A stretch of 64,000 bases of DNA. Source: Macrostomum hystrix (lineage: Eukaryota > Animalia > Platyhelminthes). This document shows positions 6,001 through 49,000 of the stretch, one piece after another (position 1 is the stretch's first letter; each line of letters begins with the position of its first letter). The stretch lies in NCBI GenBank assembly GCA_950097015.1, contig CATNEN010000038.1, positions 30,566,001-30,630,000 on the forward strand. Direction: 5' to 3'. Below the pieces are notes generated by a model that worked only from the letters and a program-made list of their open reading frames with translations, did not search any database and was not told the DNA's origin. A program made the position numbers and the translations under genes.

Positions 6001-9000
6001 CAAAGACCAACGGTTTATGTGTCTTCCGATGCTTCAGATACTAGCGACATAAAGCCCAGAAAGCAACAAAAAGCGCCTGTTGACGAGTCTTCCGACGCTT
6101 CAGAATCCAGCGACGTTAAGCCGAGTAAGCAACAAAGAGCGCCCTTAGATGATTCTTTCGATACTTCAGAAAGCAGCGACGTGAAACCGCGCCAGCTACA
6201 AAGCAACAAAAAAGAAGACTCAAGAGCGCCCGTCGATGAGTCTTCTGACCAATCAGATGCCAGCGACGGGAATGCTCAAAGGCAACAAAGACCGCCCGTT
6301 GATGAGTCTTCCGACGCTTCAGAAAGCAGCGACGCGAAACCCAGAAAGCAACAAAGAGCACCCGTTGATGAATCTTTCGGTGCCTCAGAAAGCAGCGACA
6401 TGAATCCCAAAAAGCAACAAAGAACGCCTGTTGAGAAGTCTTCCGACGCTTCAGAAACCAGCGACGATAAGCCGAGTAAGCAACAAAGAGCGCCCGTGGA
6501 TGAGTCTTTCGATGCTTCAGAAAGCAGCGACGTGAAGCCGCGCAAGCAACAAAACAACAAAAAAGAAGTCTCAAGAGCGCCCGTGGATGAGTCTTTCGAT
6601 GATTCAGAAAGCAGCGACGTGAAGCCGCGCAAGCAACAAAGCAACAAAAAGGAAGACTCAAGAGTGCCCATTGATGAGTCTTCTGACAAATCAGATACCA
6701 GCGACGGGAATCCTCAAAGGCAACAAAGACCACCCGTTGATGAGTCTTTCGACGCTTCAGAAACCAGCGACGTAAAGCTAAGTAAGCAACAAAGACTGCC
6801 CGTTGATGAGTCTTCCGATGCATCCGATACCAGCGACAGGAATGCTCAAAGGCAACAAAGACCACCGGTTCATGTGTCTTCCGATGCTTCAGATACTAGC
6901 GACATAAAGCCCAGAAAGCAACAAAAAGCGCCTGTTGACGAGTCTTCCGACGCTTCAGAAACCAGCGACGTTAAGCCGAGTAAGCAACAAAGAGCGCCCG
7001 TGGATGGGTCTTTCGACGCTTCAGAAAGCAGCGACGTGAAGCCGCGCAAGCAACAAAGCAACAAAAAAGAAGACTCAAGAGCGCACGTCGATGAGTATTC
7101 CGACTCATCACATACTAGCGATGTGAATGCTCAAAGGCAACAAAGACCACCGGTTTATGTGTCTTCCGATGCTTCAGATACTAGCCACATAAAGCCCAGA
7201 AAGCAACAAGAAGCGCCTGTTAACGAGTCTTCCGACGCTTCGGAAACCAGCGACGTTAAGCCGAGTAAGCAACAAAAACCGCCCGTAGATGAGTCTTCCG
7301 ATGCTTCAGATACCAGCGACAGGAATGCTCAAAGGCAACAAAGACCGCCCGTTGATGAATCTTTCGATGCCTCAGAAAGCAGCGACATAAAGCCCATAAA
7401 GCAACAAAGAACGCCTGTTGAGAAGTCTTCCGACGCTTCAGAAACCAGCGACGATAAGCCGAGTAAGCAACAAAGAGCGCCTGTTGACGAGTCTTCCGAC
7501 GCTTCAGAAACCAGCGACGATAAGCCGAGTAAGCAACAAAGAGCGCCTGTTGACGAGTCTTCCGACGCTTCGGAAACCAGCGACGTTAAGCCGAGTAAGC
7601 AACAAAAACCGACCGTAGATGAGTCTTCCGATGCTTCAGATACCAGCGACAGGAATGCTCAAAGGCAACAAAGACCGCCCGTTGATGAATCTTTCGATGC
7701 CTCAGAAAGCAGCGACATAAAGCCCATAAAGCAACAAAGAACGCCTGTTGAGAAGTCTTCCGACGCTTCAGAAACCAGCGACGATAAGCCGAGTAAGCAA
7801 CAAAGAGCGCCTGTTGACGAGTCTTCCGACGCTTCAGAAACCAGCGACGATAAGCCGAGTAAGCAACAAAGAGCGCCTGTTGACGAGTCTTCCGACGCTT
7901 CGGAAACCAGCGACGTTAAGCCGAGTAAGCAACAAAAACCGACCGTAGATGAGTCTTCCGATGCTTCAGATACCAGCGACAGGAATGCTCAAAGGCAACA
8001 AAGACCGCCCGTTGATGAATCTTTCGATGCCTCAGAAAGCAGCGACATGAAGCCCATAAAGCAACAAAGAACGCCTGTTGAGAAGTCTTCCGACGCTTCA
8101 GAAACCAGCGACGATAAGCCGAGTAAGCAACAAAGAGCGCCCGTGGATGAGTCTTTCGATGCTTCAGAAAGCAGCGACGTGAAGCCGCGCAAGCAACAAA
8201 ACAACAAAAAAGAAGTCTCAAGTGTGCCCATCGATGAGTCTTCTGACAAATCAGATACCAGCGACGGGAATCCTCAAAGGCAACAAAGACCGCCCGTTGA
8301 TGAGTCTTCCGACGCTTCAGAAAGCAGCGACGTAAAGCTAAGTAAGCAACAAAGACTGCCCGTTGATGAGTCGTCCGATGCATCCGATACCAGCGACAGG
8401 AATGCTCAAAGGCAACAAAGACCGCCCGTTGATGAATCTTTCAATGCTTCAGAAAGCAGTGACATGAAGCGCAGAAAGCAACAAAGTGCGCATGATGATG
8501 AGTCTTTCGACGCTTCAGAAACCAGCGACGTAAAGCCAAGTAAGCAACAAAGCAACAAAAAAGAAGACTCAAGAGCGCCCGTCGATGAGTCTTCTGACCA
8601 ATCAGATGCCAGCGACGGGAATGCTCAAAGGCAACAAAGACCGCCCGTTGATGAGTCTTCCGACGCTTCAGAAAGCAGCGACGCGAAACCCAGAAAGCAA
8701 CAAAGAGCACCCGTTGATGAATCTTTCGGTGCCTCAGAAAGCAGCGACATGAATCCCAAAAAGCAACAAAGAACGCCTGTTGAGAAGTCTTCCGACGCTT
8801 CAGAAACCAGCGACGTTAAGCCGAGTAAGCAACAAAAACCGCCCGTAGATGAGTCTTCCGATGCTTCAGATACCAGCGACAGGAATGCTCAAAGGCAACA
8901 AAGACCGCCCGTTGATGAATCTTTCGATGCCTCAGAAAGCAGCGACATAAAGCCCATAAAGCAACAAAGAACGCCTGTTGAGAAGTCTTCCGACGCTTCA

Positions 9001-12000
9001 GAAACCAGCGACGATAAGCCGAGTAAGCAACAAAGAGCGCCTGTTGACGAGTCTTCCGACGCTTCAGAAACCAGCGACGATAAGCCGAGTAAGCAACAAA
9101 GAGCGCCTGTTGACGAGTCTTCCGACGCTTCGGAAACCAGCGACGTTAAGCCGAGTAAGCAACAAAAACCGACCGTAGATGAGTCTTCCGATGCTTCAGA
9201 TACCAGCGACAGGAATGCTCAAAGGCAACAAAGACCGCCCGTTGATGAATCTTTCGATGCCTCAGAAAGCAGCGACATAAAGCCCATAAAGCAACAAAGA
9301 ACGCCTGTTGAGAAGTCTTCCGACGCTTCAGAAACCAGCGACGATAAGCCGAGTAAGCAACAAAGAGCGCCTGTTGACGAGTCTTCCGACGCTTCAGAAA
9401 CCAGCGACGTTAAGCCGAGTAAGCAACAAAAACCGACCGTAGATGAGTCTTCCGATGCTTCAGATACCAGCGACAGGAATGCTCAAAGGCAACAAAGACC
9501 GCCCGTTGATGAATCTTTCGATGCCTCAGAAAGCAGCGACATGAAGCCCATAAAGCAACAAAGAACGCCTGTTGAGAAGTCTTCCGACGCTTCAGAAACC
9601 AGCGACGATAAGCCGAGTAAGCAACAAAGAGCGCCCGTGGATGAGTCTTTCGATGCTTCAGAAAGCAGCGACGTGAAGCCGCGCAAGCAACAAAACAACA
9701 AAAAAGAAGTCTCAAGAGCGCCCGTCGATGAATCTTTCGATGATTCAGAAAGCAGCGACGTGAAGCCGCGCAAGCAACAAAGCAACAAAAATGAAGACTC
9801 AAGTGTGCCCATCGATGAGACTTCTGACAAATCAGATACCAGCGACGGGAATCCTCAAAGGCAACAAAGACCACCCGTTGATGAGTCTTCCGACGCTTCA
9901 GAAAGCAGCGACGTAAAGCTAAGTAAGCAACAAAGACTGCCCGTTGATGAGTCGTCCGATGCATCCGATACCAGCGACAGGAATGCTCAAAGGCAACAAA
10001 GACCGCCCGTTGATGAATCTTTCAATGCTTCAGAAAGCAGTGACATGAAGCGCAGAAAGCAACAAAGAGCGCATGATGATGAGTCTTTCGACGCTTCAGA
10101 AACCAGCGACGTAAAGCCAAGTAAGCAACAAAGCAACAAAAAAGAAGACTCAAGAGCGCCCGTCGATGAGTCTTCTGACCAATCAGATGCCAGCGACGGG
10201 AATGCTCAAAGGCAACAAAGACCGCCCGTTGATGAGTCTTCCGACGCTTCAGAAAGCAGCGACGCGAAACCCAGAAAGCAACAAAGAGCACCCGTTGATG
10301 AATCTTTCGGTGCCTCAGAAAGCAGCGACATGAATCCCAAAAAGCAACAAAGAACGCCTGTTGAGAAGTCTTCCGACGCTTCAGAAACCAGCGACGATAA
10401 GCCGAGTAAGCAACAAAGAGCGCCCGTGGATGAGTCTTTCGATGATTCAGAAAGCAGCGACGTGAAGCCGCGCAAGCAACAAAGCAACAAAAAGGAAGAC
10501 TCAAGAGTGCCCATTGATGAGTCTTCTGACAAATCAGATACCAGCGACGGGAATGCTCAAAGGCAACAAAGACCGCCCGTTGATGAGTCTTCCGACGCTT
10601 CAGAAAGCATCGACATGGAGCCAATAAAGCAACAAAGAGCTCCTGTTGAGGAGTCTTCTAACGCTTCAGAAACCAGCTACGTAAAGCCGAGTAAGCAACA
10701 AAAAGCGCCTGTTGACGAGTCTTCTGACGCTTCAGAAACCAGCGACGTTAAGCCAATAAAGCAACAAAAACCGCCCGTTGATGAGTCTTCCGATGCTTCC
10801 GATACCAGCGACAGGAATGCTCAAAGGCAACAAAGACCACCCGTTGATGCATCTTTCGATGCTTCAGAAAGCAGCAACATGAAGCCCGGAAAGCAACAAA
10901 GAGCGCCCGTGGATGAGTCTTCCGACGCTTCAGAAAGCAGCGACGCGAAACCCAGAAAGCAACAAAGAGCGCCCGTAGATGAGTCTTCCGAATCATCAGA
11001 CACTAGCGACGTGAATGCTCAAAGGCAACAAAGACCACCGGTTTATGTGTCTTCCGATGCTTCAGATACTAGCCACATAAAGCCCAGAAAGCAACAAAAA
11101 GCGCCTGTTGACGAGTCTTCCGACGATTCAGAATCCAGCGACGTAAAGCCAAGTAAGCAACAAAGCAACAAAAAAGAAGACTCAAGAGTGCCCATTGATG
11201 AGTCTTCTGACAAATCAGATTCCAGCGACGGGAATGCTCAAAGGCAACAAAGACCGCCCGTTGATGAGTCTTCCGACGCTTCAGAAAGCAGCGACGTAAA
11301 GCCAAGTAAGCAACAAAGAGCACCCGTTGATGAATCTTTCGATGCTTCAGAAAGCAGCGACATGAAGCTCATAAAGCAACAAAGAGCGCATGATGATGAG
11401 TCTTTCGATGCTTCAGAAACCAGCGACGTAAAGCCGAGTAAGCAACAAAGAGCGCCCGTAGACGAGTCTTCGGAATCATCAGATACTAGCGACGTGAATG
11501 CTCAAAGGCAGCAAAGACCACCTGTTTATGTGTCTTCCGATGCTTCAGATACTATCGACGTAAAGACCCGAAAGCAACAAAGACTGCCCGTTTTTGAGTC
11601 CACCAAGGCTTCAGAACGTGACGGCATGAGACCCCGAAAGCTGCAAGGCCAGGCTCTTTATTCATCAGAGTCTAATGCCATAAAGCGCGGTGAAAAAAAG
11701 AGTCAAGAAGGGTCATCTCTTGATGAATATAGCGATGCTTCAGAGACTTCTGGGTCGAAGTCCAAGACACAGGAAAACCAGCTTACTCTTGATGAATCCA
11801 CAAATGATACAGAGATCATTAAAGCTCAACTGATGAAACAGGAAAAACACCAAAGGCCACAAACGAACGAAAGGTCTTTGGTGTCAAGAAATTTTGTCGA
11901 AAAGCTTTTGGATAAAACTGCCGCAGAAAATGCCTCTGAGAGCAAAATTCAGGATAGGCCTCAAAGAAAATCTTCTGATACGGATTCAACTGGCACGCTG

Positions 12001-14203: not shown

Positions 14204-15212
14204 TTTGTTTGGATGAGAAATTCGAGCGGATGTGGCGGTCCCCATCGGCCTTTCTGAGCAACGTGCAATGGCTGCTAATGTACATGGGACTATGTCACTA
14301 GACCTTTTGTCTATTGTCTGAAACTAAAACATAGCAAGGATAGCTGGAAAGTTCGTAATAATTCAAACCTTAAGCTAACATGATTTCAGGATAAACAATC
14401 CGCTTGAGATTTCAACAATGGAGCACTCGTTTGGTCCTGTTCGAGAAGCTGATGAATGCGAGGATGATTTCACTGAGATTTGATTCGATATATCTTGTTA
14501 ATGCAAACGTTTTTGCACCGGTGCAACATTTTATTAAATGAAATTGACAAAACAAAATTAACGGATGTCGCGTTTTTCAGAAGTGGGCAATCCGCTAATT
14601 GCTTGTCCAAACCTCCCAAATCCACGCCAAGCACCTTAAAAATAGTTTCTGCTACAGCGAAATATTAAATCAGGCCAATTTTATTTTGTGAAGTATAAAT
14701 ATATACAAGTTTATATTATTTTTTGAATGTGTAATCTGTCTTGTGTAAATGTTTTAAGTGTATTTGGTGCAATGCAGAACATAAGATTTCCAGTATAATT
14801 TGTATCGTAATTAACATGATGTTAGTGCTACGTACACAAACAAATATTTTCGCTTGTTTTCTACTCGTAATTAAAAAAATCGCATGCAGCAATGTACGAT
14901 CGAGAATGTGTGCCTTCATAATCGTTTGTTCGCCTGAGTGTTAATTTTTTTTTTGTCAATTGGTGTGACTTGCTACTCAACTCATTAATATATTGAATTG
15001 TCCATGCGTGCACGAACTGGTTGTATTTCATTTAATAGACATGAATTTTGATCGCATCGTTCTTTACTATTTCTTGATATCTTGATAAAGTCTTATATCT
15101 AAGCATGTACTCAGTATTTCGAAGACTGCTATAAAGACTTAATCGGCATTATTTTCATCGTTCAAGGGTACAATTCATAGCATTGCTTGAACAATAAACT
15201 GTTATAAAATTA

Positions 15213-15767
15213 ATCCCCCCCAACTCACGCTGTCACACGGGCACAAAAGTTAAGCAATGTCTTTAATTCTAGTCTCAGTATCGTGTGTAGGAACGACGAG
15301 CATGCAAAAGTGCCGTGACTCGTCGTGGCATCCTGATCACCAGCCGGTTGATGAACTCTTGGGGCAGCTGCTGCCAGGCATTCAGCACCGCCAGTCGCAA
15401 CTGTTCAGCATTCTGTGGTGCGTCCTGCTGAACTCTTCGCTTTACAAAGTCCCAGACATGCTCGATGGTGTTCGATCATGTCTGGAGACTTTGACGGCCA
15501 GTTCAATGTGCGAATGCCGAGCTGCTCCTTCAGCAGCTGCACGTGTGCTGCTCGATGTGGCGCAGCGTAGTCGTCTTGAAGCATGCAGTTCTGCGGGCCG
15601 CCAAAGGTTGTCGTAGCAAATGGCATAAACTGCTGCTGTAGCAGCTCTGCATAGGTCTGCCCTGCCTCCCCAAATCCCCCATGCCGCACTTTGCGCTCGC
15701 GTCTGGCGGCGGCGGCGGATGGCGTACAAAACTTTTGGGCCGTGTGACAGCGTGAGTTGGGGGGGTT
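15213..15767 (-). mobile_element. Internally deleted Tc1/mariner (Tc1-like) DNA transposon retaining only the transposase C-terminus
   Basis: Inverted termini cccccccaactcacgctgtcacacgg / ccgtgtgacagcgtgagttggggggg flanked by TA at 15211-12 and 15768-69. Minus strand encodes LQDDYAAPH...WPSKSPDM and, after a frameshift, IEHVWDFVKRRV...MPRRVTALLHARRSYTRY (Tc1 DDE C-terminal motifs). Confidence 0.9.
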
Positions 15768-18577: not shown

Positions 18578-19223
18578 ACCAGCCAGTTTTTTGTCCCCCG
18601 TTGTGCGTTAATTAACAGTAGCCATTGGCCAATGACAAATAAAGACCCGTTATTTTTATAATAACTAATTTGGGCGTTCTCAATATAGTACATAGGCGAT
18701 TATACGATCACGGGCGCGAAACGGCGAGATGTCTCTGGAAAAAAACTCACCCAAAGCTTTTTTATCGGTTTTCCGCGTTATTTTCCGCGGTTTCTATGGT
18801 AAAATGGCGAAAGAGAGTAAATCAAAATGTCTATGGGAAAATCTGATTAAGGCAGCCTGGTGTAAATCTAAAGTGTCTATGGGTTTTTTCTTGTTTGCAG
18901 TTTATTAAAACATTTCGAGGTCGTAACAAAATTTAGCAATTACTGTAGTTTACAAAGAACCAAAATAAATGTGTTTTTTTATTACGTTTCGCCTTGTCTA
19001 CCAAATATTTTCGCTCGCTGACGCTAAATCTTAATCGCTTAAATGGCTTTTACTGTAGTGCCCTTGCGAAAAATTTCCGTTTTTGAGTTACAAAAAAATA
19101 CGATTTTAAATATTCCAGTTTAACATCCTTTACGGTAATTTTAATTTTTCACCATCTTGCAGAAAATGACATTTGACATTACAGAATATCGGATTGAAGA
19201 ATTTATAGAGAATTGAATTTGAT

Positions 19224-19477
19224 GGCAATTCTGCCCATTTCGCTGACTCCTGAGCACACACACATACAGGTGTGTACATCTGCCCTGACTTTCTCATCTT
19301 CATGCAGTATAAACTTTCACTGTGCCTTGGAGATTGTCTGTCATGGGCGTAAATTGCACGACAAGCCCCCAAGCCTTCTCCTCGCGGCAGCGCACCAAAT
19401 GAATGTGGCCTCGCTGCGGAATCGAGCTCAGGTACCTTAGTGCGAGAGGCGAACGCATTAGACCAATCACGACCCCT
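19224..19477 (-). mobile_element. tRNA-derived SINE, family A, copy 1
   Basis: Reverse complement aligns with the copies at ~34735 and ~36108 (ctgagctcgattccgc..gaggccacattcatttgg..aggcttgggggcttgtcgtgcaatttacgcc..gagaaagtcagggcagatgtacacacctg..ctcaggagtcagcgaaatgggcagaattgcc). Confidence 0.85.
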
Positions 19478-20244
19478 TTGCTCTGGTAAATAAGAGCGTA
19501 GGCTATAGGTTTAGTGTGTTTTTTTAACTTTCCCTAATACACTTTTCCATACTTTTCGGCTGTTTGCACAGCTTAATTTTCTGTAGCATCGCGTACCTTT
19601 TGTCTATTCAGTTGATTTGATTGATAATTCCTTTTAGAGTGAAACGAGTTTATTAACTTCTAAAATCTTACGTAATTTTTCCAAATGTAAAATAAACAAG
19701 ACACAGAAAAATGGCAATGAAGTTAAAAACAAGTCTCACAAGTGCTACTAAATTTAAACAAATAAAGATTGGTTTAAAATTAAGTAATGTTTATAAATAA
19801 TTGTGTTATATTCTTTGTTTTGTAACCTTTTGGACGTTAAATTTAATTACAATATAAAGCACGAAAATGGAAAAGAACATTAAACCCTTGTTTTTTGTGT
19901 ATTTTATTATCTTTTCCAACAAGATTTATATACATATATATTCTCATCTGCTACTACTGTCCATTTATACAATAAGAATCCGATTTCGTAATTTAGCGTG
20001 TTCGAATTATTAATTTTTAGCTAAATTAGGACAGTGCGCGTACTCTCGCAGTCCAACTAAAGTCAATTTTTAATTGATGACTCATTTTTTAATAGTTACG
20101 CACTTTCCGGGTTTGTTAGCCGGAGAATTACATCCGTTGCGTATTCTATATATAGGAATAGTTAAAAGAATATTTTATTTCGCTTTTTTTATCAGGAACT
20201 AAATAATCAATTATAAATTTCTGTGGGATAAGGAGTTTGTAAAC

Positions 20245-26395: not shown

Positions 26396-26411
26396 GGCCC
26401 TATTAAGGGCC
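26396..26411 (-). promoter_or_regulatory. Second, non-canonical histone-type stem-loop downstream of H2B
   Basis: Minus strand AAAAC-GGCCCT-TAAT-AGGGCC-CCA: same stem and 5' flank as the H2B stem-loop, but loop TAAT. Confidence 0.5.
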
Positions 26412-26727: not shown

Positions 26728-26743
26728 GGCCCTGAAAAGGGCC
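26728..26743 (-). promoter_or_regulatory. Canonical histone 3' stem-loop of H2B
   Basis: Minus strand AAAAC-GGCCCT-TTTC-AGGGCC-ACCAA, 63 nt after the H2B stop. Confidence 0.95.
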
Positions 26744-26806: not shown

Positions 26807-27172
26807 CTACTTGGCGCTGGTGTACTTGGTGACAGCCTTGGTGCCCTCGCTGACGGCGTGCTTGGCCAGCTCGCCAGGCAGCAGGAGGCGCACGGCAGTC
26901 TGGATCTCCCGACTGCTGATGGTGCTGCGCTTGTTGTAGTGAGCCAGGCGGCTAGCCTCGCCAGCGATGCGCTCGAACACGTCGTTGACGAAGCTATTCA
27001 TAATCATCATGGCCTTGCTGGAGATGCCAGTGTCCGGATGCACCTGACGCAGAACCTTGTAGATGTAGATGGCGTACGACTCCTTCCTGCGCCTCTTGCG
27101 CTTCTTGTCAGACTTCGGGGCCTTGGCCTTGCTGGCCTTTTTGGCAGCCTTACCACTGACTTTCGGCGGCAT
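26807..27172 (-). CDS. H2B: Histone H2B (replication-dependent type)
   Basis: Full H2B sequence [27 protein letters not shown]...[25 protein letters not shown]; intronless; 3' stem-loop present. Confidence 0.99.
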
Positions 27173-28036: not shown

Positions 28037-31000
28037 CTGCAAGGTTTGATGTCGGGAGTTAGATTTTAATTGTTAACTTTCTCGTCCTATTTTTCCATCA
28101 AAGTAACACTCACTTCTATTATCTTCTGGAAAAACAAAATGCTGCTGCTGCTGCTGCTGCGCTGGATAGCAAAACAGAGCCGGATTGGACACTGAGGCTG
28201 AAATGGGACACGGGATTATCCCATTGTTAGACTGGATTTTATCCCATTTTTATTAATCGGAATATCTAATTGTTAGGCTTGTCTTCTTTCTCTTAGACTG
28301 AGGATAATTGCATTGAGAGAGTGAGAATGATCCCATTTTTAGACTGATGAATATCCCATAGTTACTTATTGGAATATCACATTGTTACTAATTTTAATAT
28401 CCGATTGTTACAATTTTAATACCCGACTGTTACTATTTTAATCCCATTGTTAGTCTGGGAAAGACATTGTTAAATGATCTCTGGTGACACTCACAGTCCA
28501 ATGGGTTGTGTCCGCTGCCCAGCGTTGCGAACACGACGTTACCTCCGCTTCGACGCCAATCGCCGAAGTTCGACGGCAGCTGGTGCTGCTGCTGCTGATA
28601 CAGCCTTTGACTATCCTGACTGGCTGAGGCACTGCCAGCGATCGCCGACTCCACCGACTTCGATTGCGCAAATGTTGAACTTCTTCTATTGGACATTGCG
28701 TCGATACCGCTAGAAGCATGCGACGACTGCGCTGTCAGCAGCGGCTTGTTGACCCTGCCGACGACTCCTCCTGAATTGGCCGCCGCGGCAGCCGCCGCCA
28801 CCGCTGCAATATCGTCGGCGGAGAACGACTCATGCGGCGGTACCATGGCGTACGGCTTACCGACGACACTGTCAGCACCGACACCGTCTGGAACCTGACC
28901 GTATTGGCACTGGGACGACGGCGAACTTGGCTGCAGACGAGCGCTGAAATAATTCAACGAATGGGTTCACGTTAACAGTACAACTACCAATTTTGCAAGG
29001 GGGGGGGAGGATTTCCGCCCCTGAAAATTTTCTGTGCTGCACCCTGTTGTAAATGAATAGTAGCGAGTCAGCCAAGTTAGTATCCGAAACTTTCACGCCA
29101 AGTTGGCTCTCAGTATTTGGAATATATATATTCTGCGCCAATCGATATCAGAGGTGTACATGTACGAACTATGTACGTGCATTAATCAACTGCACAACAT
29201 TCACCTTCCCTTTCAAAGGATAGAGCAACGAAAGTAATTATGCAAATATTGAGCAGGAAATAAAAGTGCATTACCAAGCATCGAAGGAGTAAAATGATCA
29301 TTTTATGCAACAGGTACTTCAAAGAGAATTAAATCGAAACAGCTGATCGCTAATAACAGCTGAATAACCGTCACTAATAAACGAGTCAGTGAGTCACGAT
29401 TTCACCGTACCATTGCGGCGGCGCTCGCGGCCTTGAGCTCACTCGGATCGCTGTCTGGGCTGGCTGCTGCTGTCTCGCTGGGTCTGCCGCCGTCGCCGCC
29501 TCCGCGGCTGTCCCGGCTGCGCTGGGAGCCGGCGCTGGCCAGTGCGGCAGCGCTCCGGCTGGCCGCGGTACCCGGACGCAGTTGTCGACGTGCCAGCGGG
29601 AGCCATCGCTGAGGATGACGGTGGTCGCGCTCGCAATCCGGGAGATCTGCCGTGGCTCGGACAGGCGGCTGCTCAGCTTGCCGCGGGCGAACGGTCGCTT
29701 CACGCGCACCCAGTCGCCGACTATGAACGTGGGCGGCGGCCTCCGGGTCGTGTTGAGCTGATCGAAAACGCGCTGCTGCCTCCGCTTGATGCTGGCCGCC
29801 AGTCTGTGCCGCGCTGTTGTCCTTGGCTGCAGAGCTGTCAACGGGGTGCTGATCTTCCGGCCTGTCATGAGCTCCGCCGGTGACACTCCAGTCAGTGCAT
29901 GTGGGGTGGCCCTGTACGACCACAGCAGCGTCTTCACCGCGTCCTTGAAGTCGTAGCCCTCCTCTAGGTGCGTCTTTAGGCCGTCCTTGAGAAAACGGTT
30001 GAAGCGCTCTACGGCCGCGTTGCCCTGGGGGTGGTAGTGCGGTGACTGCCGGTGCCGGATGCCGCAGCGCTGAAGAAAATCCTCGAAATCGCCGGACACG
30101 AACTGCGGACCTCCGTCTGTTTTAATGCTCTTCGGCAGGCCCCAGCGGCTAAACCACGTTGTCAGGGCGTCGATGACATCCGCGCTTGTGACAGTCGACA
30201 TGCAGGCAGCCTCCGGCCACTTTGAATGCAAATCGTACAGCACCAGGATGAAGCGACAGGAGTTCGGTGCAGAGTGCAGCTCCCCGAAGATGTCGAGCTG
30301 GAGTTCCTCCCATGGACGCGTCGGCCACTTCGTAGGGGTCAGGACCGTCTTGGGTGGCTTAAAGTTCTTCTCGCTAAGCAGGCAGGCCTCGCAATGTCGC
30401 ACAAATTCCTCGATATGCTGATCGATTTGCGGCCACCAGACTGCGTCCCGGCAATGCTGCTTCATTTTGCTCACGCCGAGGTGCCCGAAATGCGCCAGCT
30501 GCAGCGTCTTCTCCCTCAGGGATGCGGGGATTACTGCTCGGGTGCCGTTGGCCAGGCACTTGCCGTCATTCCAGAGCGCCAGTTGCGTCCGCATCCTCCA
30601 GAACGGCTGCAGCTCCGGCTTCAGCTGCTTGATGGAGTTAGGCCACCCCTGGAGCGTCATTGTGACCGCATCATTGATCACCGGGTCCTGCAGGGATGCC
30701 TCGGCCAGTTCGCTTGGACTGACAATCTCCAGCGCGCCCGACAGCAGTACGGCATTCACTTGGAGCTCGGTCGAGTCCTCTTCGCTTTGCCTTGGGCATT
30801 TTGCTCCGAGAGTGCCGTGGCGCGACAAAAAATCTGGCACGATGTTCTTCTTGCCAGGAACGTGGCAGACTTGGAAGTCGTACGCGAGCAGGCGGTCGGC
30901 CCATCGATGAAGCCGCAGAGGCCGGTGGCCGCTGCCTTGAGCCGTCAGCAGCGTCGTCAGAGCCTGGTGGTCCGTGTGCAGCTCGAATCTCCGGCCGAAC

Positions 31001-34000
31001 AGGAAATAGTGCCATCTCTCGCACGCGAAGATGCACGCGAGAGCCTCTCTCTCTGATGCGGAGTACTTGCGCTCGGTCGCTGACAGGGTCCTTGACGCGA
31101 AAGCGACTGGTCTTCGAACCCCGGCGCTGTCGTCTTGCATCAGCACGGCCCCCAGAGCGTGCGCGGAGCTGTCGCAGGCCACGATGATCTTGTCGTCGGG
31201 ACTGAAGAATCGCAAGCATGTTGGGGACACCACCATCTTCTTGAGCCTCCAAAAGGCCTTTTGGCAATCTGTTGTCCAGTTCCAGGGCTGCTCTTTGCGA
31301 AGTAGCAGCAGCAGCGGCTCGGCGATGTCGGACAGGTTGTGCAGAAAGTTGGAATAGAATTTAACCATTCCCAGAAATGAGGCCACTGCCTCGGCGTTCT
31401 GGGGCTCCGGCACCGCCTCGATGTCTTCAACGTTAGACTGCATCGGCTGAAGTCCTCTCGCGGAGACGATGTAGCCCAGGAACTGCACTGTCTCTGCAGC
31501 CCACTGGCACTTTGAGGCGTTGAGCGTGACGCCATGGGCGAGCAGCTTGTCCAGCACTGTCGTGAGCCGCCGCAGGTGCTCCGCCTCGTTGGCAGCGTGC
31601 ACCACTATGTCGTCGATGTAGTGCAGCGTCCCGGAACAGCCATGGAGAATCTTGCTGAGAACTTTCTGGAAGGCCGCCGGGGCGCTGTTTAGGCCATAGC
31701 ATACGCGCTTGTACCGGTACAGCCCTTTCTCCGTAATGAAGGCCGTTAAGTCCCGCCTATCTTCTGCTAGCTCCAACTGCAGATACGAAGAATTTAAATC
31801 CAGCTTAGTGAACACGGTCGAGCCCTTGAACTCCGTTGTCAGCTCCTCGAATGTCGGCAGCGGCTGCTTATCCGGAACTATGGCCTTGTTTGGGCACCTG
31901 AGGTCATTGCAGACCCTGATTTTGCCATCAGGCTTCGGGACGATCACCAGGTTCGAAATCCACTCTGAAGCCTGGATCTCCTCGATGATGTCATCCTCCA
32001 GCAGCTGGTCAATCTCCGCCTGGACTTTGTCTTTGATGCTAAGTGGGATGCGGCGTAGCGATTGCGCCACCGGGGGCACGGCGGGGTTCAGCCTGGGCCG
32101 GTGCTCGAATCCTCGGATCCGCCCGAGTCCCTGCGTCAGTGGCTTGAAGCGCTCGGCCAGCCAGACCGGTAGCTCTGCCGTTTTTTCGACTGTGCGCACG
32201 AGGTCGCCGTCCTTGTCCACCACCTGGAAGCTGAGGTGCTGCATCAGATCCGTTCCCATGATGTCGGAGCCTTGCCGTACCACGGTAAAGCAGAAAAATG
32301 GCACCAGCTGGCCGCGATAGCTGACGGACAGCACCGCCTCGCCGACGACATCGATTGCCTTGCCGTTGTACGCGATGAGTTTCTTGGTCGACGGCTGGAG
32401 TGGCGACCGGTTTCCGAGCTTCCTGAAGGTCCTCTCTGACAGGATGGACACCTTGGCTCCCGAGTCTACAAGCAGATTCAGCCAGATGCCATGCACCTTC
32501 AGCCGGCAGCGGATGTCGGGACTAGCGGCGCCGCGCACCATGTACACGGCTTGGCCGCTCTCGTCCATGACCTCGGCGACCTTGTCGCCCTGCGACCTGC
32601 ACATCCGGCCGAAATGGTTCGCCTTCCCGCAGACATGACAACTCTTGCCTTCAGCTGGACACCGGGCTCGTCTGTTGTGCCCGCCTCCGCACTTGGAGCA
32701 TGACTCTCGATCTGGTCGCCCTTGTCCCGTGTTCTTCCTGTCTGGTTGTAGTCGGACTCTCTTCACCTCTTCTTCCAGCTGTGCTCCGGCCGCGGCTGCG
32801 CCTTCCGTCTCTATCGCGCTGGCCTCAGCGATGCTGGTCTCCCATTGCTGGCTCAGCGTCACTGCCTTCTGCAGCGTCAGGCCGTCCTCGATCAGCAAGC
32901 GCTCTCGAATTCGCCTGTCGCTGACCTTCTCCACGATCTGGTCGCGGATCATTTCTTCCATCATGTCGCGGAACTCACATGAGCCAGCCAGAGCATACAG
33001 AGCCGCCACGAAGTCCGCAATCTTTTCACCCGGACGCTGACTGCGCTGCCGAAACTTGTGGCGCTCCGCCACCACGTTGACTTTGGCTCCGAACTGCTCG
33101 TCCAGAATCGCGACTGTCGCCGCGAGTTCTGTCGGACTCGGCCTCTTCGTTGCTGCCACAGCCGCAAAGACTCGCTGCCCTTCCGCGCCAAGGCAGTGCA
33201 GCAACAGCGCGCGCCTCCTCGCTTCCGGCAAAGTGTCGTAGCCGGCCGCAAGTAAGTAGTTCTCAAAGAGGGCCTTCCACTCTTTCCACGGCCTCGCCGG
33301 TCGGCCCGGCTGCGGCAGGAATTGATCCGGCGGCGATACGCTGATCCGCGGCGCTTCTGCTGAGTTGCTGTCACTCGTCATGTTTCAGTTTGCACTTTTG
33401 CAGTTTGGCGCTGTTGTTTACGCTTGGCTTGGCAGGCTTGCAGTCACTTCACTTCAGTCTACTCCGACCCCGGCTTATTGGGGTGGGTGTTCGCTTGAGC
33501 TTGCGATGCCAATGTTGTAAATGAATAGTAGCGAGTCAGCCAAGTTAGTATCCGAAACTTTCACGCCAAGTTGGCTCTCAGTATTTGGAATATATATATT
33601 CTGCGCCAATCGATATCAGAGGTGTACATGTACGAACTATGTACGTGCATTAATCAACTGCACAACACACCCGAACGGAGCAACGCAAGCACACGAAACT
33701 CAAGAACAAGGGCAATTTTCGTTGCATATGATTTTGCTAAGTAGTTTTTGTTACTTCTGAATCAAGAATCAAGTCGACTGCTCCTCAGACCGTCGAGATA
33801 TTCCAATGTTTCTGGTCGAAGGTCAGATTTTTCCCATAAGCGCTAGTGTATTACGTACACCCCTTTACGCTCCTCAGTGCGGCCTTGCCAGGCCATCAAA
33901 ATTTATCAGCATGTCACCCGAATTGCCTGCATCATCTCCGTCTTTTGGGTGGTCATTGTCTTTTATCTAGACGGACTGCTGGACACCTTCAAGGGCTACA

Positions 34001-37000
34001 ATAGGGGAAACTAGGCCACTATGGACAGCCTGACGCGAGTTTCTCCAATTTCACTATTATGCGCAGCTCAACCACAGGACACCATCGCCTAGTCTGTCAA
34101 CCAATCAGCCACCACGGGCGGCAAAATGGCTTGGTAATTTATAACTGTTAATTAATACGCATTTCGCTACTATAAGTAGAGTATCGGATGCATCTGATAC
34201 AAACAAGCGCTTACAAAACAGAGAATTTTGTGTACAATTGCCCTGACTTTTCTCATATTTTCAGGCAGTGTACACTCTCGCTGTGCCCCTGAAAGGTCAG
34301 TCCCTCTTCGACGTAAATTAGGGCAACAAAGTCCTTAAGAGCGGCCGAAGCTATGTTTCTTAGAAAACGTATTGGGATGCATTTTTTATTCAAGGATGCA
34401 TACCTAAAGTTAAAATTTTTATGTAACTTACCTATAATGTTGCTCCAACGAATTTTATTTAGCTTTATTCCTGATAAATGGAACTAACAGGGTCTAAGCA
34501 TATAAAAACAAGTGATCAAAGCTGGAGTCTAAGGAGTAAAGACCTGATCCAGAATAGAAAAAACAAAAAGCTTGTCTTGCTAGTGGCTTTTGTATCTTAA
34601 TGCATAGCGGAGAGTATTGCATAGAGAAAGGGAAATACGAGTATATAATATAAAATATCCGCAGTGTATTTTTCTGCGAAAACCAGCTAGTCTCAGAAAC
34701 CTTTTATAAGAAACATTGCCAGCCTCGAGGTCCTCGAGGTGGCAGTGGCAGGGCGGCTAACGCGTTTGCCTCTCGCACGACGGTCCCTGAGCTCGATTCC
34801 GCGGCGAGGCCACATTCATTTGGGGTGCAGCATGAAAGGCTTGGGGGCTTGTCATGGAATTTACGCCCTTGAAGGCCAACCTCCAAGGTACAGTGAGAGT
34901 GTACACTGCCTGACAATGAGAAAGTCAGAGCAGATGTCACACCTGTGTGAGTGTGTGCCTGCGTACAGTATTTGTGTGCGTGTGTGCTCAGGAGTCAGCG
35001 AAATGGGCAGAATTGCCTCCTCGCTGGCTGCGGGTCTAGTGTCACCAAATGATGTGCCATTGCCCGCAGCCCTCCTGTAATTGTTATTATTTTTATAGCC
35101 AGACTAGCGACGGATTCGAACTCGGGACCTTCAGGCGAGGAATCGGACTCCCTTATCGCTCAGCAACCCAATAGGAGTGCCACTATAGTCTAACCATATA
35201 ATTAGCATTCGAAAATATACACTTAACAACATTTCATCACGCCAAGAGAAGATTCAGCTTCGCTAAACCAGAAAATTTGCCCCAAGTGGCTGCAGTTCTG
35301 CCAGCGCGAACGGCTGGAATGGAAATCCCTGTCACTCAATCTCCTGTTTAGAGGGCTTGGGCTGATTTCGTGTCCTCAACAAACTAGTTTTACTCCCAGC
35401 CCTGCAGTGCCGAATGAGGATTTTACTGACAGTCTGGTAGTTCTGGTGGAGGGCTCGAGCAGATCATTGATCCGCGAGAGTGGAGACAGGGTCTCAAGTT
35501 GTTACGCAATCATCCATACTTAAGAGATTTGGGAGAGGAATGACAGCTGAGTTTGAATGATTTTATGTAGCTCATATAGTGGTAGAGCTATATATGCAAC
35601 AAAGTTGTCCCAGGAAAATTATCCTCAGAAAATTGAGAATAATCTGGTCAGAGCTTTAGCCAAGGATGAATTATATAGTGTGCTCAGGGTTGAATTTTGA
35701 GCAATTTTCAATATGCCTTAGCGACAGGTGGTTGCACGTTGCGTTGCTTTGAATAATAAGCAATTGGAATTTGAGAAGCACATAGCTGGCTTATGAACAG
35801 GTGGAATTTAGAAAGGAGAGTAAACAATCTAATACTTAACAATTGGTTCTGATGTGCAGCCGACAGCACAGCCAATTGGGCCATTGACTGTTGGGAAGAC
35901 ACACCAAACCTCAATTTTCCCAATTCTAGTACTGGTACACGTCTGGGTGAGCTAAAGAGTTAATGCAGAGCTAATTGTCTTCCTAATGGACAAAAATTGT
36001 TTCAGTGCAGTCGGGAATCGAACCCCCGACCTTCAAGTCGTGAATCCGGTGCTCTAACCACTAGGCTACAGTCCGTAAAGAATATAGCTATACATAAATC
36101 TATATATGACCCTGAGCTCGATTCCGCGGCGAGGCCACATTCATTTGGGGCGCAGCCGCCTAGAGAAGGCTTGGGGGCTTGTCGTGCAATTTACGCCTTT
36201 GAGGGCCGACCTCCAGGGCACAGGAGGTGTACACTGCCTGACGATGAGAAAGGCAGGGCAGATGTACACACCTGTGTACAATGTACCTGTGTACAGGGCA
36301 GATGTACACACCGGTATCCCCGGTAAGGTTCACGTGCCCAAGATGCGCGGAATCTTTCCTACAAGAAGCCACAAGCAAGAACCACATGAAAGTGTGCAGA
36401 GGAGAGAAAGAAACATCAGATGGTAAAATGGAATGTACTAGCTGCAACAGAGAAATATCGAAGTCGAACATGGCTCGCCACAGACGAGCCTGCAAGAACC
36501 CGATGGGACAAACGGCCGGGACACAGGCACAACCCGACAACGGAGTGGTGGCACGCAAGCACATCAGGAAGAGGAAGGACTGTGACAGGTGCGGCAGGAA
36601 CCTAACGGCCACTAACATGGCCAGGCACCAGCGCACATGCACAGGAAATTGACAGGTTCTCCAGGGCCCCATACCTCACGGTGACAAAGGGCGAAAGAAG
36701 AAGAAGAAGTACACACCTGTGTGAGTGTGTCCTTTAATTAGGAGTCAGCAAAGTTAGCGACTCAAAATTCATCTTTCGTGTTCCTACAATCGATGTAATC
36801 TGTGCTCGGCTAACTTACCTAGCAGCATTCGAAGATTCCATGTCCTTGTAGACCTTGGGCCGCTTGCAACAGAAATATGTTAGCACAGTGATTAGTACAA
36901 TGATCACCGCTGTACAACTGGCTCCGACAATTAAAATTGTACTGGTCTGAACTTCAGGCAATGTTGTCACTGAAATGTTAAGTAGAAATGGGTTTCATTT

Positions 37001-46000: not shown

Positions 46001-49000
46001 AGGAGAAAGTAAGAGAGAAGAGAGTAAGAGAGTGAGAGAGGAGAAAGTAAGAGAGAAGAGAGTGAGAGAAGAGAGAAGAGAGAAGAGAGTATGAGAGAAG
46101 AGAGTAAATTGGTATGGCATTTGCGAAAGTCTACTGGAGCACGTGAATACAATCTATGAAGTTTTTGTAACAAAAAAATATATCCAGAAACTTACTGTTC
46201 GTTTTATAACTGAGGATGCGCTGCTAAATATATTTCTCTCCGAACAAGCGTCTTAGATACGTAAATCTGATAGATTATAGACTGTGTCGAAACACACCTG
46301 CTTCTAAAATGATCTATAGAATTATATCACGAATACTGGAATATCTGACAGCCAAGCGACTGTTTCATATGGTGCCAGCCAATGAGAAATGAGAATGCTT
46401 GCTCCCCTGGGGTGCTGTCGGCTGTTCCCAAGTCTTCTGTGATTTCGGACCAATGAATTTTTGTTTCTACCAAGAAGATGTAAGAGACATTTTTTTGATC
46501 AGCTCTTTGTTATGTCGTGCATGGCAACTAGGATGTAACTATGGTCAAACCCAGATTACTGATCCCCAGATTACTCATCCCCAGATCCCAGATCCCTAGA
46601 TCTCAGATCCCCAGATCCCAGATCCCCAGATCCCTGATTCTCAGATCCCCAGATTCCTGATCCCCAGATCCATGATCCCCAGATCCATAATCCCCAGATC
46701 CATGATCCTAGATCCCTGATCCTAGATCCCTGATCCCCAGATTCCTGATCCCCAGATTCCTGATCCCCAGATCCATGATCCCCAGATCCATGATCCCCAG
46801 ATCCATGATCCCCAGATCCCTGATCCCCAGATCCCTGAGCCCAGATCCCCAGATCCATGATCCCCAGATCCCTGATCCCCAGATCCCTGATCCCCAGATC
46901 CCTGATCCCCAGATCCCTGAGCCCAGATCCCCAGATCCATGATCCCCAGATCCCTGATCCCCAGATCCCTGAGCCCAGATCCCCAGATCCCTGATCCCCT
47001 GATCCCTGATCCCCAGATCCCTGATCCCTAGATCCCTGATCCCTAGATTCCTGATTGCAAGTCAAATCAGGGAGCACTTAGAGATCTTGAATTTTCTAGC
47101 CCTTTAAACTGATGATCATTACTATTTTTCCTGCCAACTTCTTAGTAGCATCATTTCCTTAACTTCAATGCTTCACACTTCATCTTTTCAGTTGAAAAGC
47201 GAGCTTTTTTAAAGCTGCACAATGGATGGGACACTACAAAAGCCTACAGAGATTAAAAATTGGAACTGTCTGGCACATCCCTTTGAGATTCTATTTACCA
47301 CAAGTTCAGGCATTGCGGCCCCAGTAGCTCAAGTCATTATTGATTCTAGCCAAAAGTAGGCTTGAATAATAGTCTCATTCATCGCGAAAAAGTATGCTAA
47401 ACTAGCTCCTATTAACTAGTGACAAACGGCAGGTAAATATAAAACGGCAAGAAATTTGGGTTCTAATAATCGCTACTCACTACTTCCAGTAGACAAGGTG
47501 GACAGGCCGCAAACTTCTTCTCTGTCGGCCAGGCAGACAGACACTCTGTAGAGCAGATTCCGATTAATTCCAGATACAATCGCGGGGGTTGCATTGCCTA
47601 TAGGCAGGCAGTACTGATAAAGCGACCATGACAAGCCGGCATCTTCTGAGACCTCAATTCTTAAACAATAGTCTTGAGCAGCGGCTAGAGTGACTGACAG
47701 TTTAGTACCGTCTTCGTTTAGTTGAACGCGAATCGGTTTCGGCAGGGACAGACTGGCTGTCACCTGGCTGACAGCGGCACTGTAATTGCTCTGGCCTAAC
47801 TCGTTCAGGCCGTAGATCTGAAAACAATTGATCGAAGTTGAAAATGTCTCTTTTGATGCAGTGATGTCTGCTTTTAAGTAATATGGGACATCTTCTGTGG
47901 CCCTTAAAAGGGCCGTTTGAAACAGGAATTTTCAGGCTGTCCTAATTTAGGCCGTTTTATAATCGCTCATTACCACATCTAAATATATCTAACCTTATTT
48001 GCCCTCTTAATATCGTGCTGACTACAGTAACTTGATTGCAATGGGGCAGTCTATTTGAAAGGCAGCGCTTATCAACTCGAATACAACTCACCTGGATGGT
48101 GTAATTAGTGCCAGGCATCAGGCCTGTGATGTTAGTCCTAGTTGAGGTGTCACATCGCCTGTTGGCAATCCTAACCTGGCCGGTGGATCTGTCCCTAGTC
48201 AGCAGTCGGCTCCAGTATTGCACCGGACTGCCGCCTGAGAAGGCCGTCGACCACGTCAGCGCTACGAAATCCCAACCAGCCGAGAGTACTCGCAGCTGAG
48301 TTGGAGCGTCCGGTGTCGTTGGCGACAGGACGCGAAATGTCACCCGAGCGCTGCCCAGCCGATTCGTTGCTATGCAGGTGTACAAGCCAAGAGCAGTCAC
48401 TCGCTCTAGGCGGCTCAGGTATTGATAAGGCGTGCTCGGATCTGCCTCAAATCGTGCGGACGTGTCGAAGCTGACAGAATTGCCCGCTGGCCTCTCAAAC
48501 TGCCACCTGATGATGGGCCTCGGCTGTGCCAGCACTGGACAGCTGAAGTCCACGGAGTTGCCGTCCGGTTTGGCGATCTTTGTCTCCACTGGCACAATCT
48601 GCGGCTCGACTGGGTGACAGGGTGACTGATTGACAGAGTGACTGATTGACAGAGTGACTGATTGACAGGGTGACTGATTGACAGGGTGACTGATTGACAG
48701 GGTGACTGATTGACAGGGTGACTGATTGACAGGGTGACTGATTGACAGAGTGACTGATTGACAGAGTGACTGATTGACAGAGTGACTGATTGACAGGGTG
48801 ACTGATTGACAGAGTGACTGATTGACAGAGTGACTGATTGACAGGGTGACTGATTGACAGAGTGACTGATTGACAGAGTGACTGATTGACAGAGTGACTG
48901 ATTGACAGGGTGACTGATTGACAGAGTGACTGATTGACAGAGTGACTGATTGACAGAGTGACTGATTGACAGGGTGACGGATTGAAAGAGTTAAATAAAA

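What the first reader, a model, noticed from the sequence alone, without database searches (positions are those of the whole stretch)
47818..48091. Canonical histone 3'-end stem-loop inside an adhesion-receptor intron, placed like a histone 3' UTR after an in-frame stop
Seen: the 274-nt intron splitting FN3-1 carries, on the sense strand, AAAC-GGCCCT-TTTA-AGGGCC-ACA (47914-47899). Its stem is identical to the real H2B stem-loop in this window. If the donor at 48091 is not used, the frame runs 44 more codons to TAA (47959-47957), and the stem-loop follows 42 nt later (63 nt in H2B). The 3' flank (acagaagatgtccca..cttaaaag) resembles the H2B flank (accaaatatgttcga..cttaataag). Known: this 16-nt motif is the SLBP site directing U7-dependent, non-polyadenylated, S-phase-coupled 3' ends, and is considered essentially histone-specific. 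Inference: it could produce a poly(A)-minus, cell-cycle-linked mRNA for a secreted TM-less Ig ectodomain, attenuate the receptor in S phase, or be an inert transposed histone 3' end. Caveat: the read-through product would have an incomplete FN3 domain.
Basis: partly seen in the sequence, partly recalled or inferred. Interest (0 to 1): 0.8.

Follow-up and report, generated by a model that had tools for sequence, protein, structure and literature searches.

The report
Stray histone hairpin in receptor intron
A real copy of the RNA hairpin that ends histone messages sits inside an intron of a flatworm cell-surface receptor gene, but the intron is cut out in the assembled transcripts, so the hairpin is likely an inert leftover of mobile DNA rather than a hidden switch.

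Summary
Observation confirmed. The hairpin at 47914-47899 (-) scores 32.6 bits on Rfam RF00032; the H2B hairpin in the window scores 34.0. It is far beyond chance. The organism is Macrostomum-like (H2B 99% identical to M. lignano).

The proposed function is unsupported but not excluded. In 6 of 8 runs laid, contigs join across the intron (9/9 donor); in 5 of those 6 they continue into the transmembrane exon. Contigs of unrecorded library type could miss a poly(A)-minus RNA. There is no purine-rich downstream element. The 'stop then hairpin' layout arises in 12% of shuffles. The flank likeness to H2B is marginal, and the 44-residue tail has no homolog.

The motif is not histone-exclusive: of 125 exact-match clusters in metagenome contigs, 77 follow histones and 15 follow DNA transposases. 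Doubled hairpins mark non-histone loci (10/41 versus 1/77), and the intron has a decayed second copy. Best reading: an inert relic, likely from mobile DNA (0.45) or from a histone 3' end (0.3); a functional intronic 3' end gets about 0.1. No transposon remnant was found in the intron. The scan noted transposase-linked hairpins before, on other DNA.

The parts
47899..47914 (-). Canonical histone-type 16-nt stem-loop, with AAAC before (47918-47915) and AC after (47898-47897)
   Evidence: pair probabilities 0.84-0.98 in a 111-nt context
47938..47957 (-). Likely decayed upstream copy of the hairpin, 39 nt before the intact one; first 8 nt identical, 7 of 20 differ, pairing mostly lost
   Evidence: the 8-mer arises in 0.07% of shuffles of the upstream 130 nt
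47818..48091 (-). 274-nt GT-AG intron splitting the FN3 domain; donor 9/9 U1 consensus
   Evidence: joint 47817/48092 in contigs of X2, X3, X4, X5, X6, X7
47957..47959 (-). First in-frame stop if the donor is not used (after 44 codons)
   Evidence: placement unremarkable
48092..48609 (-). Receptor exon: Ig (I-set) domain plus FN3 positions 1-65 of 84
47481..47817 (-). Next receptor exon: rest of the FN3 domain and a further extracellular segment (no Pfam hit at E 0.01)
36819..36969 (-). Transmembrane exon, joined to 47481 in transcript-like contigs
   Evidence: loose-end letters of X2, X3, X4, X5, X7 match this exon; hydrophobic stretch in its translation
26807..27172 (-). Intronless H2B gene, 99% identical to Macrostomum lignano H2B (comparator)
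26728..26743 (-). H2B's own stem-loop, 63 nt after its stop (comparator)
26396..26411 (-). Second orphan hairpin 332 nt past the H2B stem-loop: same stem and AAAAC lead, non-canonical loop TAAT
   Evidence: not hit by RF00032 at E<=1

Best explanation
The hairpin is a true histone-type stem-loop lying in an intron that is spliced out, and it is likely an inert relic, most likely left by a mobile element whose gene ended in a doubled histone-type hairpin. Shown: the sequence, its non-chance origin, removal of the intron in assembled contigs, a background-level downstream flank, a decayed-looking second copy, and the existence elsewhere of transposase genes ending in this exact motif. Inferred: that the 9/9 donor commits the intron to splicing so that the hairpin leaves with the lariat; that no U7-directed cut occurs; and that the donor DNA was a transposon (no transposon sequence survives to prove it). 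The inert reading as a whole (this plus rival 1) carries about 0.75.
For: Splicing: joint 47817/48092 with correct ends in 6 of 8 runs laid (X2, X3, X4 of study P1; X5, X6, X7 of study P2); 5 of these 6 continue into the TM exon 10.5 kb away. The contigs are taken as RNA-derived because they skip GT-AG introns; the tool labels them 'DNA?' or '?'. Donor 9/9. Downstream element: score -2.7 on a profile of 77 histone flanks; 3 of 77 score as low; 34th percentile of background; H2B scores 2.0. [quoted passage not shown] 21). Vehicle: of 125 distinct clusters from 136 metagenome loci, 77 follow histones, 15 transposases, 3 other genes, 23 no hit, 7 too short. A second loose hairpin within 130 nt: 10 of 41 non-histone versus 1 of 77 histone clusters (Fisher p 9e-5, overstated because loci are not independent). 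The intron has such a second copy. No homolog of the read-through tail.
Against: No transposase or histone remnant, no terminal inverted repeat and no significant target-site duplication in the intron. X1 laid as one contig, with no other contig matching part of the stretch at 80%, so no young repeat family was seen; the shortest detectable match is not stated. The one Tc1-like relic in the window has no hairpin after its stop. The 22-mer is intact while the neighbouring copy differs at 7 of 20, which could mean selection on the intact one; ascertainment also predicts this. The local H2B flank is a closer match to the intron flank (12/22) than any of 92 foreign flanks (max 11). The 4-substitution threshold for 'second hairpin' admits the intron's copy at exactly its limit, and 3 of the 10 tandem non-histone cases share a contig prefix. 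No metagenome locus is from Macrostomum (best H2B identity 94%). H1 genes were not queried and may sit among the 23 no-hit clusters.
Confidence: 0.45

Rival explanations
1. Inert copy of a histone gene's own 3' end: a 5'-truncated tailless retrocopy of a histone mRNA, or a short local duplication from the H2B locus 21 kb away.
For: 21 of 22 nt identical to the neighbouring H2B hairpin. H2B's flank is the best match among 93 flanks. A second orphan hairpin lies 332 nt past H2B, and all copies face the same way. A 6-nt direct repeat begins right after position +5, where a mature histone 3' end is expected. [quoted passage not shown]
Against: No histone coding remnant. The intron's upstream part aligns to the H2B gene no better than shuffles (0.22) and upstream positions 6-30 match 5 of 25. 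The 6-nt repeat arises in 32% of shuffles. Histone loci are almost never doubled (1 of 77). The same 22-mer is common across unrelated animals, so identity to H2B says little about descent.
Confidence: 0.3
2. Functional alternative 3' end: SLBP and U7 cut the pre-mRNA after the hairpin in proliferating cells, giving a poly(A)-minus RNA for a truncated, TM-less receptor, or removing full-length message in S phase.
For: Perfect core, correct orientation, stable fold, intact beside a decayed copy. Stop-to-stem distance of 42 nt is near the metazoan median of 30 (bioRxiv 10.64898/2026.10.14.759114, section 9); 3.5% of shuffles give 10-65 nt. Shared flank letters with H2B could be a lineage-specific downstream element. 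Precedent for a hairpin inside an intron: human HIST1H2BC/BD lose stem-loop and HDE on splicing (PMC9756948, passage). Planarian stem-loop histone RNAs are under-represented in oligo-dT libraries (PMC10954484, passage), so such an RNA could be missed here.
Against: Spliced joints in 6 of 8 runs; 9/9 donor 177 nt upstream; no purine-rich element; a multi-intron transcript, which is reported to block this processing; broken FN3; tail without homologs.
Confidence: 0.1
3. The hairpin binds SLBP without being cut, and modulates splicing or nuclear retention of this intron, or acts as a decoy on the excised intron.
For: The core needed for SLBP binding (G-C pair 2, loop U3) is intact while the downstream element is absent; the stem lies 81 nt before the acceptor.
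Against: No data on binding, retention or conservation. I found no described case.
Confidence: 0.08
4. Chance or an unrelated DNA palindrome (GGCCCT-N4-AGGGCC) that happens to match.
For: A third palindrome with the same arms but a non-canonical loop exists at 26411-26396. A bare canonical 16-mer is expected 14-20 times per 500 Mb.
Against: With the AAAN/MC flanks the expectation drops to about 0.05 per 500 Mb; 3 matches in 596 Gb of prokaryote DNA and 0 in viral contigs.
Confidence: 0.05

Closest known systems
Metazoan replication-dependent histone mRNA 3' end (Rfam RF00032; SLBP; U7 snRNP; HDE)
   Same: 16-nt core, A-rich lead and AC after the stem; 32.6 bits against 34.0 for the true H2B hairpin.
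   Different: No histone ORF upstream, no purine-rich downstream element, and it lies inside a spliced intron of a multi-exon receptor gene.
Human HIST1H2BC / HIST1H2BD spliced isoforms (PMC9756948 and PMC3661734, passages)
   Same: A histone stem-loop that falls inside an intron and is removed when splicing wins.
   Different: Those are histone genes with a complete ORF and an HDE; here the host is an Ig/FN3 receptor and the unspliced frame breaks a domain.
Tailless histone retropseudogenes (PMC5322556, passage)
   Same: A known route for scattering 5'-truncated histone 3' ends through a genome.
   Different: Described in therian mammals; here no histone coding remnant and no significant target-site duplication.
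DNA transposase genes ending in histone-type stem-loops (seen here; earlier scan notes e1-10418993, e1-8600484; no paper found)
   Same: Identical 22-nt motif outside histone genes, sometimes doubled (4 of 15).
   Different: No transposase, terminal repeat or sister copy was found for the intron; none of the 15 loci is shown to be from a flatworm.

Membership tests
Replication-dependent histone mRNA 3' end | 16-nt stem-loop with G-C pair 2 and loop U3, A-rich lead, AC after | tested here: met
   32.6 bits, 1.4 under Rfam's gathering score
Replication-dependent histone mRNA 3' end | Follows the stop codon of a histone ORF | tested here: not met
   No H2A/H2B/H3/H4 match in the intron at E<=1 (H1 not queried); read-through peptide has no Pfam hit
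Replication-dependent histone mRNA 3' end | Purine-rich histone downstream element (peak at +14 to +19 in 77 flanks) | tested here: not met
   At best 3 purines in 8 nt; profile score -2.7, background level. The profile comes from other animals.
Replication-dependent histone mRNA 3' end | Complementarity to this species' own U7 snRNA | not testable with these tools
   No genome held; only one native histone flank available, itself a modest scorer (2.0)
Replication-dependent histone mRNA 3' end | Intronless transcription unit | tested here: not met
   Multi-exon receptor; the intron is joined across in 6 of 8 runs
Replication-dependent histone mRNA 3' end | Poly(A)-minus RNA end 4-5 nt past the stem; SLBP bound; S-phase coupled | not testable with these tools
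   Only contigs were served; they cannot show RNA ends
Relic of a stem-loop-bearing DNA transposon | Transposase remnant upstream | tested here: not met
   8 transposase queries gave no hit in the intron; masked intron had no meaningful hit among 139 loci
Relic of a stem-loop-bearing DNA transposon | Terminal inverted repeats and target-site duplication | tested here: not met
   Only short 80-89% inverted pairs; 6-nt direct repeat not significant
Relic of a stem-loop-bearing DNA transposon | Other copies in the genome | tested here: inconclusive
   X1 gave one contig and no partial ones at 80%; none in the window beyond the hairpin itself; no genome held
Relic of a stem-loop-bearing DNA transposon | Doubled hairpin, as in 4 of 15 transposase loci (a resemblance, not a defining trait) | tested here: met
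   at the limit of the loose pattern
Tailless histone retropseudogene | 5'-truncated histone mRNA sequence ending at the mature 3' end, with target-site duplication | tested here: inconclusive
   No coding remnant; 6-nt repeat after +5 with null 0.32

The most novel reading that the evidence does not exclude
A flatworm has co-opted a histone-type hairpin, delivered by mobile DNA, as an intronic SLBP/U7 cleavage site in an Ig/FN3 adhesion receptor, so that dividing stem cells cut the receptor pre-mRNA into a poly(A)-minus truncated form while differentiated cells splice it to full length. It would be a multi-intron, non-histone gene under the histone 3'-end pathway, invisible to oligo-dT sequencing.
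Probability: 0.1. Interest if true: 0.85.

Novelty: new member of a known kind. Interest (0 to 1): 0.27.

Why it matters
As an inert relic it matters little, except as a warning: a perfect RF00032 hit outside a histone gene is not evidence of histone-type processing, because transposase genes carry the same motif. If the hairpin were cut by SLBP/U7, it would overturn two working rules (histone-only use; incompatibility with introns) and link cell-cycle state to an adhesion receptor in a regeneration model genus. One 3'-end ligation experiment with H2B as a neighbouring control decides it. The side result, 15 of 125 clusters behind transposases of four Pfam types, is of more general interest than the intron itself.

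Tried and rejected
No whole genome was held, so the genome-wide RF00032 scan and strand-bias test could not be run. The run search gave 'no RNA holder listed'; this blank is not used as evidence. X9 gave one 194-nt contig, 47632-47825, entering the intron by 8 nt at the acceptor side and not reaching the hairpin; small share, kind guessed, not used. No raw reads were served, so RNA ends, strand and level are unknown. An exact 30-nt search of metagenome contigs found 0. No look-alike of the intron among earlier scan windows. snoRNA or other structured RNA in the intron: whole-intron folding z -0.85; only chance-level Rfam hits besides RF00032; rejected. A small nested gene ending at the hairpin: I saw only 2- and 7-codon ATG frames in the intron (read); rejected. 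The window's Tc1-like relic as donor: no hairpin. Donor scores were off-register for several exons; only the corrected ones are used. Presence of SLBP, Lsm10/11 and U7 in this species was not tested. Literature: no paper on non-histone or transposase use of the motif, or on Macrostomum histone stem-loops, turned up (open-licence library only). 10.1101/2025.02.02.635956 and 10.64898/2026.08.17.745202 (passages) added nothing decisive. Supplements of the bioRxiv survey were not seen and may list flatworm stem-loops or U7.

Full report
Observation. The intron runs 48091-47818 on the minus strand (274 nt, GT..AG). The hairpin GGCCCT-TTTA-AGGGCC is at 47914-47899. Read-through gives 44 codons and TAA at 47959-47957, 42 nt before the stem; in H2B the distance is 63 nt. 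Rfam RF00032 scores it 32.6 bits against 34.0 for the H2B hairpin and a gathering score of 34; these are the only two RF00032 hits in the window. It folds with pair probabilities of 0.84-0.98 in context. Chance is not a good account: about 0.05 copies of a flanked canonical hairpin are expected per 500 Mb, and the 22-mer occurs 3 times in 596 Gb of prokaryote genomes and 0 times in viral contigs.

Setting. H2B is 99% identical to Macrostomum lignano H2B and the receptor exon's best hit is an M. lignano Ig protein, so the animal is a Macrostomum-type flatworm. The host gene has Ig and FN3 domains, a transmembrane exon at 36969-36819 and a likely last exon at 28943-28433. H2B follows about 1.3 kb further on the same strand.

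RNA evidence. Nine runs hold part of the region; I laid 8. In six (X2, X3, X4; X5, X6, X7; two studies) contigs join 47817 to 48092, skipping exactly 274 nt, and in five of the six they continue into the transmembrane exon. The tool labels these runs 'DNA?' or '?'; I infer they are RNA because they skip GT-AG introns. X1 covers the stretch unspliced in one contig and may be the source DNA. X9 gave one short contig that does not reach the hairpin. So the full-length spliced receptor is made. Contigs drop rare forms and cannot show ends, the library types are not on record, and planarian stem-loop histone RNAs are under-represented in oligo-dT libraries (PMC10954484, passage). A minor poly(A)-minus form is therefore not excluded.

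Tests of the 'histone 3' UTR' layout. A first stop 10-100 nt before the stem arises in 12% of shuffled introns, and 10-65 nt in 3.5%. The 3' flank matches H2B at 12 of 22 positions. That beats random DNA (0.005), but 7 of 92 unrelated hairpin flanks match H2B as well; 0 of 92 match the intron as well. It is a marginal signal. In 77 histone flanks purines peak at +14 to +19. The intron scores -2.7 on that profile (3 of 77 as low; 34th percentile of background) and H2B scores 2.0 (16 of 77 as low). [quoted passage not shown] The profile is not flatworm-specific, so a divergent native element remains possible. The donor is a 9/9 match to the U1 consensus (consensus recalled). Inclusion of an intron is reported to prevent proper stem-loop processing (PMC3661734, passage). 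The read-through protein ends at FN3 position 68 of 84. Its tail found no relative among 49 candidates; among the 150 best HMMER hits only 2 extend past residue 190, at 26% identity.

Where orphan hairpins come from. After merging duplicates and tandem copies, dropping matches with under 40 nt downstream and leaving out the 3 prokaryote loci, 125 clusters remained: 77 follow core histones, 15 follow DNA transposases (12 Tc1-like DDE_3, 1 DDE_Tnp_4, 1 IS1595-type, 1 DDE_Tnp_1_7), 3 follow other genes, 23 had no hit (H1 not queried) and 7 had too little flank (Pfam was run on 73 ORFs from L001-L080, the rest were classed by tblastn to those). In the 12 Tc1-like cases the stem lies 17-53 nt after the stop; 5 are near-identical (93-98%) and the median pairwise identity is 49%. 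A second loose hairpin within 130 nt occurs in 10 of 41 non-histone clusters and 1 of 77 histone clusters, and 0 times in 16,404 nt of window background. The intron passes this test, at the pattern's limit. The loci are not independent, so the p-value (9e-5) is overstated. Earlier scan notes on other genomes reported transposase genes with such ends; e1-8600484 gave me the lead before I ran the scan. I found no paper on it.

What does not fit. The intron has no transposase or histone remnant, terminal repeat or significant target-site duplication. X1 showed no sister copies at 80%. The window's own Tc1-like relic lacks a hairpin. The intact hairpin beside a copy that differs at 7 of 20 positions could reflect selection, though the finding was picked for being perfect. 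H2B's flank being the nearest of 93 favours a histone-derived copy, for which tailless histone retropseudogenes are a precedent (PMC5322556, passage). Human H2BC/H2BD show that a stem-loop can sit in an intron and compete with splicing (PMC9756948, passage), but in histone genes with an HDE.

Verdict. A real histone-type stem-loop in an unusual place, failing three membership tests for a histone 3' end (no histone ORF, no purine-rich element, spliced multi-exon host). Inert relic about 0.75 (mobile-element origin 0.45, histone-gene origin 0.3); functional cleavage site 0.1; binding-only role 0.08; chance 0.05. Conservation and RNA ends, the two decisive tests, could not be run. Interest 0.27.

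Noticed in passing
L001, L002, L015, L055, L057, L059, L067, L068, L080, L116, L122, L124, L045, L049, L078: DNA transposase ORFs of four Pfam types are followed by the exact histone-type 22-mer (17-53 nt after the stop in the 12 Tc1-like cases), several with a purine-rich flank; 4 of 15 have tandem hairpins, L078 seven. These elements may use the histone mRNA pathway.
   Followed up: partly
L047, L073, L058: GDSL-family ORFs (L047, L073) and a Tpt1/KptA RNA 2'-phosphotransferase ORF (L058, doubled hairpin) also end 10-23 nt before the histone-type hairpin.
   Followed up: no
L011, L048, L069, L112, L117, L129: A group of loci with no Pfam or tblastn hit that share a similar pyrimidine-rich flank after the hairpin, mostly with an upstream variant hairpin whose stem changes keep pairing.
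   Followed up: no
window 26396-26411 (-): Second hairpin 332 nt past the H2B stem-loop, same stem and lead but loop TAAT, with a purine-rich stretch after it; possible decayed duplicate or back-up end.
   Followed up: partly
window 15210-15760: Broken Tc1-like element (frameshifted DDE remnant at about 15278-15602, minus strand) bounded by about 40-nt inverted repeats; no histone-type hairpin.
   Followed up: partly
window 29386-33384 (-): Uninterrupted 1332-codon gag-pol-like frame of a Ty3/gypsy-type retrotransposon (by eye) inside the receptor's last intron, with an apparent LTR pair near 33640-33520 and 29180-29050.
   Followed up: no
window 36248-36668 (+): 134-codon Cys/His-repeat frame within a repeat that recurs near 34700-35000 and 19130-19510; a hairpin-like 14-mer with a 2-nt loop follows its stop by 2 nt, possibly chance.
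   Followed up: no
L137-L139: The only 3 prokaryote hits of the 22-mer are in metagenome-assembled genomes (Sedimenticola, SUP05) and have animal histone-like flanks; likely animal DNA contaminating those bins.
   Followed up: no
window 47536; TM exon: Allelic differences among runs: G>A at 47536 in X4, and one letter in the TM exon differing in X3 and X4.
   Followed up: no
window 4841-11616 (+): Long 66-nt tandem array with open frames, apparently coding a repetitive Ser/Asp/Lys-rich protein.
   Followed up: no
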